From: an uncultured Clostridia bacterium
GTDB lineage: Bacteria > Bacillota > Clostridia > TANB77 > CAG-508
Reading direction: 5' to 3'
Length of the DNA stretch: 64,000 nucleotides
NCBI GenBank assembly: GCA_947630545.1
Contig: CANRHX010000001.1
Coordinates: forward strand, 20,499 to 84,498
The position numbers and the translations under genes are program-made. Below the pieces are notes generated by a model that did not search any database, had not been told where the DNA came from, and saw only the letters and a program-made list of their open reading frames with translations. This document shows, piece by piece, positions 25,080-47,049 of the stretch (position 1 is the stretch's first letter; each line of letters opens with the position of its first letter).

Positions 25080-25108
25080 TTGAAAAATAAGTAAAAACGA
25101 TGTATAAT
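25080..25108 (+). promoter_or_regulatory. sigma-A-type promoter (TTGAAA-17-TATAAT) for the adhesin A-B operon
   Basis: TTGAAA at 25080-25085, a 17-nt spacer, TATAAT at 25103-25108. The leader to the ATG at 25297 is about 190 nt. Confidence 0.5.
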
Positions 25109-25296
25109 ATAAGATAGGTTGATATGTAAATATTGCTTTGTAATATAAATGTAATAAAAATTTAACGAAAAAGTAATATTTGCGTTAAAAATATTTCCGT
25201 AACTATATACAAAGTTAAAAAAATATACATATTGACTGTAAGAAAAATTATTATATATTATTATATTAAGGAATAAAATTTTAAGGAGGAAGAAAT

Positions 25297-28200
25297 ATGA
25301 AAGGGAAATTATTACAAAGATTAATTGCCGTGGTTTTAGTTTTATGTTTAACAGCAACTAATTTTATTTTTGTTGCTACAAGCACAGTATATGCTTTAAG
25401 CACAACAACTGAGTTAGAAGGAGGAAAAATCATATTTGAAGCATATTTTAAAAATGGCGATCAAAAAGTAACTGAAAAAACAGCAAATATATCAGAAGGA
25501 GATAAACTTTATTTAAATTTAGAATTAAAAGCAGGTAAACTCCAAGATGCAAAAATAAAAATAGACAATGCAAATTTCAAAATAATGGATGATAAAGTTA
25601 ATAATAAATTTATAAACAATATCAATACCAAAACAAATGAAATTGCATTAAATGAAATAAACTATAATGATAGTAAAAATGGAGTTATAGAAATAGAATT
25701 ACCAATTAAATTTGAAGAAGCAGAAAAAATACCTACTTCTTATTTTGCTAGGGAAAATAGTATAAACCTTTCAGGAAAATATAAAAATTCCTCTGAAAAT
25801 GCAAAAAATATACAAAGTGATACAATAAAAACAAAATTAACATGGGCACAACAAACAGATGGAATAAACTATAGTACAAAAATAGAGAAAGTAATTTATT
25901 TTGATAATAAAACATTAGTACAAGCAAACATCCAATCAACATACAAAGGAGCATATTTCCCAAAAGAAACAGAAACAGTAACAGTAAATCTTCCAAAAAT
26001 AGATAACATTACTCCAAGTTATACAGTTTTAGTAGATGGAAACAAACTAGATGTAAATCAAATAACAGATAGTATAGAGACACAAACAATGTCATTCACA
26101 AATAATTTTATAGATGATGAAAACATTACATGGAACAAATCTGGAAATTCATATAAAGTTATATATGTTTATGATGGAATAACAAAATTAGAAGACCCAC
26201 TACAAATACAACCAAAAATAGAAACAAAACTATTTAACAATGATAAAAAATTAACAGGAAGTCCAACATATAAATCAAATAAGCCACAAGGAACTATAGC
26301 AAGTGTTAGTGCAAAATCAACATCAGGAGATGTATATAAAGGTTATATGTATGCTAATTCAGAAGAAACAAGATATTCAGAAGAATATAACATGGAAATG
26401 TCTTATGTAGATGGAATTACATCAACATTTGAGTTAGCAGGAGATAAGTTCAAAACACAAGATGGTGAAGAAATTAGCACAAACAATCAAACCGAATATA
26501 AAGAAATAAGAATAAATAAAGAAAAACTAGTTAAAGTACTAGGAACAAAAGGTAGTTTAAAAATAATACCAGACAACAAGGAATTAAGTGAATTTGTAAT
26601 AAACTCAACCAGTTCAGCTGATGAAAATGGAAACATAGTAATAAACAATGATAGAATTAAAGGATCACACAATGTAACAATTCAAGTAACATCAGCAGAA
26701 AACCCAGGAACATTAACAATTTTAGCAACTAAAGCTATAAAAGGAAATGCTGGATATGAAAAAGACACATTAAAAACAATAAATGCAATAGAAACAACTA
26801 TAAAATCATATACAGATAATGTAGAAGGAACATCAACTGCGTCAGCAACAACAGGATTAAAAGAAACAGTAACACAAGCAACAATAACAATGAATAACAA
26901 CAATATACTTTCAACAACAAGTACAAACAACATTGAATTCATTGCAACTTTAAAAACAGGTACAATGGATACAGATTTACTAAAAGAGCCAACAGTAAAA
27001 ATCATATTGCCAGATGAAGTAACAAAAATTGAGTTAAGTTCAGTATCTGCTTTATATGCAGAAAAAGAATTAAAAATAGCAAGTGCACAAGTAGTTGATA
27101 ACAACAAAGCAATATTAGTAAAACTAGATGGTGAGCAATTCAAATATAACAATAAATTTATTGAAGGTATAAAAATTACTGTAAATGCACAAATAACATT
27201 AAATGATTCTGCAACATCAAGAGATACAAAAATTACAATGAAATATACAAACGAAAATAGTGCTAATAAAGAATATACAGCAACTACTGATGTATCAGTC
27301 CAAGCACCTTATGGAATTATTAAAAAAGCAGCTATTTCTGCATACTTTGAAACAGAAAACAATGGAACAGAAACATTAACAACTAGATTAATAAACAATT
27401 ATGGAAAATCAGTTGAAAACATAGCTATAATTGGAACAATGCCAAGCGTAAAATTATCTAAAAATGAATTTGAAAAAGGAATAAAAGACAGTTTCCAATC
27501 AAGCTTCTCTAGTGATAAAAATAAAAAGGCAAATATAGAAATAAAATATTCACAAGATGAAGAAAATTTCAATGATAGCTTTGAAAATGCAAAATTATAT
27601 AAAATAATATTAAAAGATAATAAATTAGAAAGTAAAGAAATGTTAGGAATAAAATTCACATTAAATATTTCTCAAATTTTACCAAACTTTAAACTTTCTT
27701 ATATATATGATAGTGATGAAAAGGTTGAAAATTTACAAATTAATGAAATGACATCAGGAACAAGCAAAAATGAAAATAAAAAACCAGAAACATCAGGAAA
27801 TACAGGAACAGAAGAACAATCAGGAGAAACAAGACCAACAAATCCAACAACACCAACAACTCCAAATGCTGAAAAAGATGAAAATCTAAGAGTAGGATTA
27901 AATATAAAATCAGGAAATACTGAATTAAAAGATGGAGATGAAATATTTGCAGGGCAAACAATAAGATATACCTATAAAATATTAAATAATACAGGAAAAG
28001 AAGTAAAAAATATAAAACTTGTAGTAAATCATGAAAATGCAAATATATTCGAAGAACAAACAGAGCAACAAACTAATACAGCAAGACCTGATGAAAAAAT
28101 AAATTTCACATATGAAGTAGAAACAGAAAAATCAAGCAAAGAGTACACTATAGGTACAATGAAAGATGGAGAAACAAAAACTATAACATATCAAGTAAGA

Positions 28201-46963: not shown

Positions 46964-46993
46964 AGACAAAATTTTGTAAAGTAATTTACAACT

Positions 46994-47049
46994 AGCACTA
47001 AATATGATATAAGTAGAGTAATCTATTTAGCATATTTAGTGCTTTTTTG
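46994..47049 (+). terminator. rho-independent terminator after adhesin gene D
   Basis: A 13-bp stem agcactaaatatg/catatttagtgct, with a long loop, is followed by TTTTTT. Confidence 0.5.

What the first reader, a model, noticed from the sequence alone, without database searches (positions are those of the whole stretch)
25080..47049. 22-kb cluster of four giant surface proteins arranged as a tandemly duplicated two-gene module (A-B / C-D)
Four consecutive co-oriented genes of 1,633-1,951 aa take up a third of the window. A and C are paralogues. Both have DUF11 repeats, one or two Cna-B/SdrD-B domains beginning 'SG(V/L)AW.DEN..G', and a low-complexity linker. B and D are paralogues with shared blocks 'NNAFTELTGE', 'LYAGFD', 'DDSD.APGLQ' and 'ID.GLIERP.Q.ME'. 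Each pair is translationally coupled: the B start overlaps the A stop, and C reads directly into D. Each pair has its own promoter/leader and its own terminator. This is an accessory, probably recently duplicated, adhesin or surface-polymer locus, not a housekeeping one.
Basis: partly seen in the sequence, partly recalled or inferred. Interest (0 to 1): 0.75.

Follow-up and report, generated by a model that had tools for sequence, protein, structure and literature searches.

The report
Paired giant thioester-type surface adhesin genes
Four giant genes in an uncultured gut Clostridia genome form two copies of an old, conserved two-gene unit that most likely builds long cross-linked surface fibres tipped with a chemically reactive "covalent glue" domain; this is a distinctive variant of a known adhesin type, not a recent accessory duplication.

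Summary
The four giant co-oriented ORFs are real: A 25297-30315, B 30287-35533, C 35922-40823, D to 46963. A/C and B/D are paralogues, but only 33-35% identical.

The locus is not accessory. It follows mreCD-pbp2-minC in 68 of 80 species-representative genomes of uncultured gut Clostridia. Most of these carry both modules, so the duplication is ancient. The flanking proteins are 81-90% identical to those of the closest relatives, whereas A-D are only 27-59% identical.

Both protein types are chains of isopeptide-family Ig-like domains (SpaA, SdrD_B, DUF11/CLIPPER, DUF7927). Each has a signal peptide and a C-terminal motif plus TM helix plus basic tail.

B-type proteins start with a domain that no Pfam model recognises. 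Its only significant fold matches are class II thioester domains. Its Cys81 and Gln332 are invariant and sit in the published thioester-domain motifs.

"C reads into D" is a gene fusion, an arrangement seen intact in about a quarter of the species. Here it is interrupted by two frameshifts, which recur in an independent assembly.

Best reading: paired TIE-like covalent fibrillar adhesins, a new variant of a known kind. Interest is moderate.

The parts
25232..25261 (+). Best candidate promoter of module 1 (TTGACT-N16/18-TATATT/TATTAT), about 35 nt upstream of the start of A
Evidence: Scores 10/12. The TTGACT box is shared with the region upstream of C. It lies 61-69 nt upstream of A in L001, L002, L004, L008 and L009. 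Function was not tested.
25297..30315 (+). Gene A (1672 aa). It has a signal peptide, then a chain of pilin/MSCRAMM-like Ig-fold domains. An ENPGTT-type low-complexity spacer follows (29101-29247), then SdrD_B (from 29278) and a CLIPPER-like domain. It ends with SIRTG (30178-30192), a TM helix (30193-30258) and a KKRK tail.
30287..35533 (+). Gene B (1748 aa). Its ATG overlaps the end of A by 29 nt. It has a signal peptide, a thioester-domain-like N-domain, three SpaA/CnaB domains and two SdrD_B plus CnaA-like units. It ends with TPPTG (35420-35434), a TM helix (35453-35512) and KKKVLK.
   Evidence: The profile hits the pilin CnaB domains 4oq1 and 3phs.
30374..31381 (+). B N-terminal domain (residues 30-365), a class II thioester-domain-like fold. 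The Cys81 codon is at 30527-30529 (GGYCVDP) and the Gln332 codon at 31280-31282 (SQNFF).
   Evidence: AF2 pLDDT 84. The only significant Foldseek PDB hits are 6fwy (E 4e-5, prob 0.98) and 6fwv (E 3e-3). Cys and Gln are invariant in 73 of 73 N-domains. The motifs match Miller et al. 2018, PMC6194298. There is no Pfam hit for the window's own copy.
31785..32567 (+). Internal 393-nt tandem duplication within B (two SpaA-type domains, 85% identical)
35551..35587 (+). Intrinsic terminator after B (16-bp AT-rich stem plus U7)
   Evidence: Fold energy -16.8 kcal/mol, z -5.9. The G+C-biased consensus scan missed it.
35838..35866 (+). Candidate promoter of module 2 (TTGACT-N17-TAATAT); the AGGAGG ribosome-binding site is at 35910-35915
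   Evidence: Sequence read. It aligns with the region upstream of A. L001 has the same element 88 nt upstream of its second module. Not tested.
35922..40823 (+). ORF C (1633 aa as listed), an A-type paralogue with two SdrD_B domains (from 39096 and 39720) and a PSN/PDN spacer (39477-39701). SISTG (40563-40577), a TM helix (40578-40640) and KKRK follow. There is no stop at that point: the frame continues into D's signal-like TM (40668-40712) and an NNSNA|YD cleavage-like site.
40777..40820 (+). Interval containing frameshift 1 of the C-D fusion (frame 0 to +1)
   Evidence: The +1 frame opens at 40777 and frame 0 stops at 40821-40823. The sequence is identical in the independent assembly L088.
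41108..41175 (+). Interval containing frameshift 2 (frame +1 to +2). There is no homopolymer at either frameshift site.
   Evidence: The stitched N-domain keeps the family's signature residues: WK[C]QNED, II[G]P, [Y]Y, NG[Q]PLAT.
41108..46963 (+). Remainder of D (1951 codons open), a B-type paralogue with SpaA domains and two SdrD_B-like units. It ends with TSPTG (46802-46816), a TM helix (46853-46915) and a KKK-rich tail.
46994..47048 (+). Intrinsic terminator after D (long hairpin plus U6)
   Evidence: Fold energy -25.8 kcal/mol, z -7.1
24107..24929 (-). Two small divergently oriented ORFs (126 and 152 aa) with no known domains; the first has a C-terminal hydrophobic segment. Both are conserved in position between minC and gene A across the clade.
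   Evidence: Their link to the cluster rests on position only.

Best explanation
The region encodes two copies of an ancient two-gene module for giant fibrillar proteins that are exported through Sec and anchored at the C-terminus.

- **A-type partner (A, C).** This is a stalk of about 1600 aa made of pilin/MSCRAMM-type Ig-fold domains from families that form internal isopeptide bonds. It includes a low-complexity spacer and ends directly in a membrane helix.
- **B-type partner (B, D).** This carries a divergent class II-like thioester domain at its far tip. Below that lie CnaB/SpaA, SdrD_B and CnaA-like stalk domains, then a sortase-signal-like xPxTG/xxPTG motif, a TM helix and a basic tail.
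- **Inferred mechanism.** Cys81 and Gln332 form an internal thioester. A nucleophile on the target (host mucus or matrix, food particle, or another cell) attacks it, which gives covalent attachment. The cross-linked stalk resists shear and proteases.
- **Coupling of A and B.** The two are made together through overlapping or abutting genes. In many species they are a single precursor with a TM-loop-TM hairpin and a retained signal-peptidase-like site, so they are delivered 1:1 at one membrane site.
- **The C-D unit in this genome.** It is of the fused type and has recently been disrupted by two frameshifts inside D's tip domain.

Shown here: domain content, conservation, synteny, fusions and frameshifts. 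Inferred: thioester chemistry, the target, processing, sortase dependence and A-B contact.
For: - **Domain families.** SpaA, SdrD_B, DUF11/CLIPPER and DUF7927 are found in the window proteins. All four are listed as isopeptide-domain families in PMC12617251.
- **Conserved triads.** K362, E434 and N756 are invariant in the B family. In the A family K1500 and N1590 are invariant and D1530 is near-invariant. Their spacing of 30/60 residues resembles the CLIPPER triad spacing of 33/58.
- **B N-domain motifs.** Cys and Gln are invariant in 73 of 73 first-module domains, within [YFM]C[VMIAL][EDQ] and Q[ND][FLM][ILM]. Second-module domains retain them at 93% and 96%. This fits [YFL]C-phi-zeta and phi-Q-zeta-phi-phi; the published statement is that only Cys and Gln are universal.
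- **Third motif.** QxxPhiW is present in 24 of 75 first-module domains.
- **Sequence-level link.** One relative gives a near-full-length sub-threshold hit to Pfam TED, starting at the Cys motif (E 0.019).
- **C-terminal tripartite signals.** They are conserved across about 80 species.
- **Fused ORFs.** They carry an internal TM-basic loop-TM hairpin, often followed by an AXA-like site.
- **Fast divergence.** A-D are far more diverged than the neighbouring genes, as is typical of exposed proteins.
Against: - **No threshold sequence match.** No Pfam or PDB sequence-profile hit reaches threshold.
- **Atypical features of the window's B.** It lacks the QxxPhiW motif. Its Cys-Gln spacing of 251 residues is longer than the 171-204 of solved class II domains.
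- **No sortase found.** None of the window ORFs that were scanned is a sortase. The motifs are not canonical LPXTG.
- **Structural role also fits.** Universal presence at one locus beside cell-shape genes, together with tightly conserved protein lengths, would fit a structural envelope role as well.
- **A-type role and D status.** Nothing shows what the A-type partner does. D is probably non-functional in this strain.
Confidence: 0.6

Rival explanations
1. These proteins are primarily a constitutive structural coat of the cell envelope in this clade, comparable to an S-layer or a fibrillar sheath. Length-conserved fibres would be planted in the membrane or wall, and adhesion would be secondary or absent.
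For: - The locus is present at the same position next to mreBCD-pbp2-minC in 68 of 80 species.
- Both modules are retained in most species.
- A-type length stays near 1600 aa down to about 25% identity.
- Every member has a C-terminal membrane helix.
Against: - Invariant Cys/Gln thioester-type motifs at the distal tip point to reactive chemistry, not packing.
- There are no SLH, CWB2 or other lattice or wall-binding domains in A-D.
- Some species have lost the second module, and this strain has a broken D, so not all copies are essential.
- Synteny with cell-shape genes may simply be inherited gene order.
Confidence: 0.2
2. A and B are subunits of a sortase-assembled pilus. A-type would be the shaft or base and B-type the thioester-bearing tip, as with Cpa in streptococcal pili. 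The TG-containing motifs would be the sites of sortase transpeptidation.
For: - The folds match pilins (EbpB, BcpA, LrpA, RrgB, CppA), and the B profile hits the minor pilins 4oq1 and 3phs.
- Thioester domains occur in pilus tip proteins.
- C-terminal xPxTG/xxPTG and S[IV][RKS]TG motifs followed by a TM helix and a basic tail are conserved.
Against: - No sortase gene lies in the locus or elsewhere in the 64-kb window among the ORFs scanned. None was called in the Pfam-annotated gene lists of the six related loci inspected.
- The proteins are three to four times larger than pilins.
- The A-type motif lacks proline.
- Single-chain A-B fusions do not suggest a polymerising shaft.
- No pilin-motif lysine was identified; this was not searched systematically.
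Confidence: 0.08
3. The C-D half is still expressed as one protein of about 3680 aa. On this reading the two frame changes are either errors shared by the assemblies or sites of +1 recoding, not a pseudogene.
For: - When stitched, the D N-domain keeps every signature residue.
- 1951 codons remain open downstream in a 28% G+C genome.
- The intact fused form exists in the close relative L001 (3665 aa).
- Coverage of the second assembly is only about 3.6x.
Against: - The same sequence, with 0 gaps and 2 mismatches over 15.4 kb, occurs in an independently assembled contig.
- Neither site is a homopolymer or a known slippery sequence.
- Two successive recoding events would be unprecedented.
- A relative, L002, also has a frameshift in its second-module tip domain, at the GP motif. 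That suggests recurrent decay of this copy.
Confidence: 0.2

Closest known systems
TIE proteins with class II thioester domains (BaTIE 6FWV, EfmTIE86 6FWY, SaTIE; Miller, Banfield and Schwarz-Linek 2018, PMC6194298)
   Same: - An N-terminal tip domain with Cys and Gln in the [YFL]C-phi-zeta and phi-Q-zeta-phi-phi motifs.
- A beta-sandwich lies between the Cys and the Gln.
- A stalk of CnaB-type isopeptide domains.
- A C-terminal pentapeptide-like motif followed by a TM helix and a basic tail.
- These are the only significant fold matches.
   Different: - The B-type proteins are three times longer (1300-2000 aa).
- Pfam TED does not detect the tip domain at threshold, and its global superposition is poor (TM 0.2).
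- The stalk has additional SdrD_B plus CnaA-like units with large insertions.
- The motif is TPxTG or xxPTG instead of LPXTG.
- The protein is always paired with, or fused to, a second giant stalk protein.
- The locus is a clade-wide core locus.
Sdr-family MSCRAMMs (SdrC/D/E) and other SdrD_B-containing adhesins
   Same: - SdrD_B domains with the SGxxWxDxNxNG start.
- A low-complexity spacer ahead of the anchor.
   Different: - No recognisable A-region ligand-binding (dock-lock-latch) module.
- No SD dipeptide repeat; the spacers are ENPGTT or PSN/PDN.
- No LPXTG.
- NCBIfam SdrC scores 44 bits against a cutoff of 1700.
Fibrillar adhesins with DUF11/CLIPPER stalks (PMC12617251)
   Same: - Long surface proteins whose stalks are built from CLIPPER, DUF7927, SpaA and SdrD_B isopeptide-family domains.
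- A Lys-Asp-Asn triad with CLIPPER-like spacing in the last domain of A and C.
   Different: - The domains here are diverse rather than tandem identical repeats.
- Anchoring is by a C-terminal TM helix that directly abuts the last domain.
- The organisation is a two-protein module.
Sortase-assembled Gram-positive pili with thioester tip pilins (e.g. S. pyogenes Cpa)
   Same: - Pilin-like folds.
- A thioester tip.
- Adjacent genes for the tip and stalk components.
   Different: - No pilus sortase gene in the locus.
- Subunits far larger than pilins.
- Membrane helices retained in fused single-chain versions.

Membership tests
Bacterial thioester domain (TED, class II) | Bond-forming Cys in a [YFL]C-phi-zeta motif | tested here: met
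   B has GGY-C81-VD. The Cys is invariant in 73 of 73 first-module N-domains, as [YFM]C[VMIAL][EDQ...], and is kept in 93% of 54 second-module domains. Motif definition: PMC6194298.
Bacterial thioester domain (TED, class II) | [quoted passage not shown] | tested here: met
   B has S-Q332-NFF. The Gln is invariant in 75 of 75 first-module domains, as Q[ND][FLM][ILM], and is kept in 96% of second-module domains. In the model, a beta-sandwich (strands at model residues 197-298) precedes the hairpin that carries the Gln.
Bacterial thioester domain (TED, class II) | TQxxPhiW motif on the helix next to the bond (stated to be conserved but not essential) | tested here: inconclusive
   QxxPhiW (mostly VQNAIW; one TQKVLW) is present 40-60 residues after the Cys in 24 of 75 first-module domains. 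It is absent from the window's B and from most second-module domains.
Bacterial thioester domain (TED, class II) | TED fold | tested here: inconclusive
Bacterial thioester domain (TED, class II) | Cys and Gln side chains in bonding distance, and an actual thioester (17-Da loss) | not testable with these tools
   Model coordinates are not exposed by the tools. The bond itself needs mass spectrometry or crystallography.
TIE-type surface protein architecture | Signal peptide, N-terminal TED, stalk of isopeptide or ester domains, C-terminal sorting signal | tested here: met
   The order in B is signal peptide, N-domain, three SpaA domains, two SdrD_B plus CnaA-like units, then TPPTG, a TM helix and KKK. 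This holds at the level of architecture only; the TED and sorting-signal components carry their own caveats.
Intramolecular isopeptide domains (CnaB-like SpaA; CnaA-like CLIPPER) | Conserved Lys-Glu/Asp-Asn triad | tested here: inconclusive
   K362, E434 and N756 are invariant in 16 B-family sequences. In 23 A-family sequences K1500 and N1590 are invariant and D1530 is near-invariant, with CLIPPER-like spacing. Geometry and bond formation were not tested. The SdrD_B domain of A shows no conserved Lys/Glu pair.
Sortase substrates (LPXTG-type cell-wall sorting signal) | Pentapeptide LPXTG (or a known variant), then a hydrophobic segment and a positively charged tail | tested here: inconclusive
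   The tripartite layout is conserved. B-type proteins have [VI]xTPxTG[EDGA]Nx[ND][YF], a TM helix and KKK (xxPTG in second modules). A-type proteins have [IVL]S[IVL][RKSG]TG, a TM helix and KKRK. Only T and G match canonical LPXTG throughout, and no NCBIfam sorting-signal model hit was found.
Sortase substrates (LPXTG-type cell-wall sorting signal) | A sortase encoded in the genome | not testable with these tools
   No sortase was found among the window ORFs scanned. Whole genomes of the clade could not be searched.
Sdr-family MSCRAMM | N2-N3 ligand-binding A region, B repeats, SD repeat region, LPXTG | tested here: not met
   Only the SdrD_B repeats are shared. NCBIfam SdrC scores 43.9 bits against a cutoff of 1700. 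There is no SD repeat and no LPXTG.
Sortase-assembled pilus locus | A pilin-specific sortase gene adjacent to the pilin genes | tested here: not met
   None in the window locus, and none in the Pfam-annotated gene calls of L001-L007.

The most novel reading that the evidence does not exclude
The A-B module is a previously undescribed, clade-defining two-component surface organelle of an uncultured gut Clostridia lineage. It would be an obligate pair of a giant stalk protein and a giant thioester-tipped protein, made as, or easily converted into, a single polyprotein. That polyprotein would insert as a TM hairpin and be split by signal peptidase. The tip domain would represent a third, sequence-unrecognised class of thioester domain. 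The fixed position beside the elongasome and MinC genes would reflect a functional link to envelope growth, not mere inherited gene order.
Probability: 0.2. Interest if true: 0.65.

Novelty: new variant of a known kind. Interest (0 to 1): 0.45.

Why it matters
These proteins take up about 22 kb of a small, low-G+C genome. They are conserved across at least 80 species of abundant but uncultured animal-gut and human-gut Clostridia, yet they are annotated only as hypothetical or DUF11 proteins.

- **Colonisation.** If the tip domains are real thioester domains, the clade would carry a universal covalent-attachment device. That would give a concrete handle on how these organisms colonise the gut.
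- **Known diversity of thioester domains.** The family would extend it, because no Pfam model detects the tip domain of the window protein, and at most a sub-threshold hit appears in one relative.
- **Gene fusion and fission.** The recurrent split and fused forms, with a retained TM hairpin, are a clean natural experiment on fusion between two exported proteins.
- **Strain typing and antigens.** The very fast divergence relative to neighbouring genes makes the locus a likely strain-typing marker and antigenic marker.

Tried and rejected
- **Pfam and NCBIfam on A-D.** No family was found for the B/D N-domain or for most of A's N-terminal half.
- **Sequence profiles against the PDB.** Three profiles were tried: the whole B family, the N-domain alignment A3, and the QNAIW subgroup A6. 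They returned only CnaB pilin domains or noise, and no thioester domain.
- **afdb50 fold library.** It was not available.
- **Profile search of 1.84 billion representatives with the N-domain.** It gave 170 hits, all from the same family with the domain at the N-terminus. There was no bridge to canonical thioester-domain families, and ten distant hits showed only SpaA/SdrD_B in Pfam.
- **Consensus promoter and terminator scan.** Promoter-like sites were not enriched over shuffles. The G+C-biased terminator rule missed both real hairpins, so these were found by reading and folding the sequence.
- **Phase variation as the cause of the D frameshifts.** Rejected, because there is no homopolymer or short repeat at either site.
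- **Recent duplication or mobile island.** Rejected on paralogue identity and on clade-wide synteny.
- **Rfam leader or riboswitch upstream of A or C.** None was found at gathering threshold.
- **Literature search for this locus.** Nothing specific was found.
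Full report
**1. What is in the sequence**

The window has about 28% G+C. Between 25297 and 46963 the + strand carries four very long ORFs:
- A, 25297-30315, 1672 aa
- B, 30287-35533, 1748 aa
- C, 35922-40823, 1633 aa
- D, listed from a GTG at 41108 to 46963, 1951 aa

Start sites are well supported. A and C each have an AGGAGG-type ribosome-binding site. B's ATG lies 29 nt inside the end of A, in another frame, behind AAGGGGG. 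A, B and C begin with typical signal peptides: a K/R-rich start, a hydrophobic core and a small-x-small site.

Strong hairpins followed by U-tracts sit after B (35551-35587, z -5.9) and after D (46994-47048, z -7.1). The G+C-biased consensus scan had missed both.

Promoter-like hexamers are no more frequent than in shuffled sequence. However, a TTGACT-N16-18-TATTAT element at 25232-25261 is shared with the region upstream of C. It recurs 61-69 nt upstream of gene A in the closest relatives.

**2. Paralogy**

A and C align at 35% over their last 306 residues by BLASTP. In a 23-sequence family alignment they align over their whole length, with C about 24% identical to A. The paralogy is real but old.

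**3. The C-D junction**

C has no stop codon after its TM helix and KKRK tail. The frame continues through IFKGIKIFGIVIILLILGINNSNA|YD, which looks like B's signal peptide, and stops 30 codons later at 40823.

Homology to B-type N-domains then continues in the +1 frame, which is open from 40777 to 41178. It continues again in the +2 frame from 41108. So C-D is one fused reading frame of about 3680 codons, interrupted by two +1 frame changes. These lie within 40777-40820 and 41108-41175. Neither site is a homopolymer.

An independently assembled 15.4-kb contig (L088, from another ENA assembly) matches the window with 2 mismatches and no gaps, and it has the same gene breaks. The frameshifts are therefore very probably real.

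When the three frames are stitched together, D's N-domain still has every signature residue of its family. In addition, 1951 codons remain open downstream. Both facts indicate that the disruption is recent.

A relative, L002, also has a frameshift in its second-module tip domain.

**4. Distribution and context**

Upstream lie radC, mreB, mreC, mreD, pbp2 and minC, followed by two small reverse-strand ORFs with no known domain. Downstream lie a dTMP-kinase-like gene, an OLE RNA and housekeeping genes.

B has only about 30 word-sharing homologues in 5.8 billion proteins, and A has about 138. All come from metagenomes or MAGs, and where named they are called hypothetical or DUF11 proteins.

A scan of GTDB species representatives found 191 relatives. 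All 80 loci kept for inspection (the best-scoring matches) come from uncultured gut Clostridia, including Clostridium sp. CAG:440. In 68 of those 80 loci minC lies upstream of the A-B pair, usually together with pbp2, mreD and the small reverse genes. The other 12 loci lack enough upstream sequence or were matched at the second module.

The architectures among the 80 loci are as follows:
- pbp2-A-B-A-B in 28
- A-B followed by a single fused A+B ORF of 2800-3200 aa in 19
- first module fused in 3
- one module followed directly by the downstream WG-repeat gene in 4
- the remainder truncated by contig ends

The tandem two-module arrangement is therefore ancestral to the clade. It is not a recent duplication and not an accessory island.

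Against the closest relatives, MreC, MreD, PBP2 and MinC are 81-90% identical. In contrast A is 50-59% identical, B 38-51%, C 30-47% and D 27-38%. Such rapid divergence is typical of exposed surface proteins.

**5. Fusions**

Fused ORFs keep both hydrophobic segments: the A-type TM helix, a basic loop of 5-15 residues, and the B-type signal-like helix. An AXA-like site often follows, for example ...TSQA|A...VFA|A and ...SLA|I.

The topology is consistent. The A part lies outside, a hairpin sits in the membrane, and the B part lies outside. Cleavage by signal peptidase would regenerate two proteins, but that step is inference.

Because the genes abut or overlap, a single-base change is enough to fuse them. 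The fusions therefore prove co-expression and compatible topology. They do not prove physical contact.

**6. Domains**

Pfam finds the following:
- A: SdrD_B, plus DUF7927 below threshold
- B: SpaA three times, and SdrD_B
- C: SdrD_B twice, and DUF11
- D: SpaA

All of these families belong to the 26 families predicted or shown to carry intramolecular isopeptide bonds (PMC12617251).

The B family has invariant K362, E434 and N756, a CnaB-type triad. The A family has invariant K1500 and N1590 and near-invariant D1530. Their spacing is close to the crystallographic CLIPPER triad.

**7. The B-type tip domain**

Residues 30-365 of B have no Pfam or NCBIfam match. The AF2 model has pLDDT 84.

- **Published motifs.** Miller et al. 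2018 define thioester domains by a Cys in [YFL]C-phi-zeta, a Gln in phi-Q-zeta-phi-phi, and a non-essential TQxxPhiW motif. They note that only the Cys and the Gln are universal. In class II domains the Gln comes from a hairpin after an inserted beta-sandwich.
- **First-module domains.** Cys81 (GGYCVD) and Gln332 (SQNFF) are invariant in all 73 first-module domains in which both alignment columns are covered.
- **Second-module domains.** These are far more divergent, yet they retain the Cys at 93% and the Gln at 96%, together with GP and FY motifs and the first CnaB Lys.
- **Third motif.** QxxPhiW, mostly VQNAIW, occurs in 24 of 75 first-module domains.
- **Pfam link.** One relative gives a sub-threshold hit to Pfam TED that spans nearly the whole profile and starts at the Cys motif (E 0.019).
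- **Family breadth.** A profile search of 1.84 billion representatives found only 170 members. The domain is always N-terminal and is followed by SpaA.

I therefore read this as a strongly diverged class II-like thioester domain. The Cys-Gln bond itself, and even the Cys-Gln distance in the model, could not be tested here.

**8. C-termini**

Across the clade, B-type proteins end in [VI]xTPxTG[EDGA]Nx[ND][YF], a TM helix and KKK. Second modules have xxPTG; the window has TPPTG in B and TSPTG in D. A-type proteins end in [IVL]S[IVL][RKSG]TG, running straight into a TM helix and KKRK; the window has SIRTG in A and SISTG in C.

This layout is that of a sortase sorting signal, but the pentapeptides are non-canonical. 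No sortase was found in the window. Whether these proteins become linked to the cell wall or stay anchored in the membrane remains open.

**9. Interpretation**

The best-supported reading (confidence about 0.6) is a pair of TIE-like giant fibrillar adhesins per module. The B-type protein would present a reactive thioester tip on a cross-linked stalk. The A-type protein would be a co-delivered partner stalk.

The rival readings are:
- a constitutive structural coat (0.2)
- a sortase-built pilus (0.08)
- for the C-D half only, continued expression despite the frame changes (0.2), against recent pseudogenisation

**10. Novelty**

The building blocks are known: TIE proteins, isopeptide stalk domains and SdrD_B. 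Several aspects are new or undescribed as far as the searched literature shows:
- a tip-domain family that Pfam does not recognise at threshold
- the obligate A-B pairing with recurrent fusion through a TM hairpin
- the clade-wide fixed locus beside the cell-shape genes
- the non-LPXTG C-terminal motifs

I class it as a new variant of a known kind, of moderate interest (0.45).

Noticed in passing
window 47901-48497 (+): A full-length OLE (Ornate Large Extremophilic) RNA, RF01071, scoring 362.9 bits (E 5e-103). It lies directly downstream of the cluster and the dTMP-kinase-like gene. The next ORF (48489-49046, 185 aa, with a weak CNNM-type TM hit) sits where, from memory, an OLE-associated membrane protein gene (oapA) is described.
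   Followed up: no
window 21156-21210, 23382-23470, 35581-35635, 47048-47102, 51881-51917, 52065-52101, 52515-52603, 55405-55493: A 34-nt-period palindromic intergenic repeat, TGTGTCAnnGGTTCCGGGTTTnnnTGACACA. There are 19 copies in arrays of 2-3 at eight intergenic sites, against 0 expected by chance. Two of the arrays sit immediately after the terminators of B and D. The repeat folds into hairpins and resembles REP or MITE elements.
   Followed up: partly
window 23491-24102 and surroundings: minC is not followed by minD or minE here, nor in the related loci. Instead come two small reverse-strand ORFs of unknown function (24107-24487, which has a C-terminal hydrophobic segment, and 24471-24929), then the giant genes. 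No MinD-like gene was seen among the window ORFs that were scanned.
   Followed up: partly
window 31785-32567: A 393-nt tandem duplication inside B (85% identical) that duplicates one SpaA-type domain. It suggests ongoing variation in domain number within the stalk.
   Followed up: partly
L002 about 21400-21500: In a related genome the second-module B-type gene is also split by a frameshift inside its tip domain, at the conserved GP motif. It is called there as separate 231-aa and 1985-aa genes. This suggests recurrent decay of the second-module tip.
   Followed up: partly
window 5641-9882 (-) and about 10000, about 60000: A tyrosine integrase (8932-9882), an ECF-like sigma factor (6677-7219) and unannotated ORFs lie at the point where GC skew and gene orientation flip (about 10 kb). 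A second flip occurs near 60 kb. This may be the border of an integrated element or a strand-switch region.
   Followed up: no
L089 (ENA ERZ27249118 NODE_733) and L088 (ERZ27249329 NODE_1326): The same strain was assembled in at least two further samples at about 3.6x coverage; A is 100% identical, and L088 differs from the window by 2 SNPs over 15.4 kb. In L089 the small reverse ORFs upstream of A are called as three shorter pieces, which could reflect low-coverage errors or real variation.
   Followed up: no
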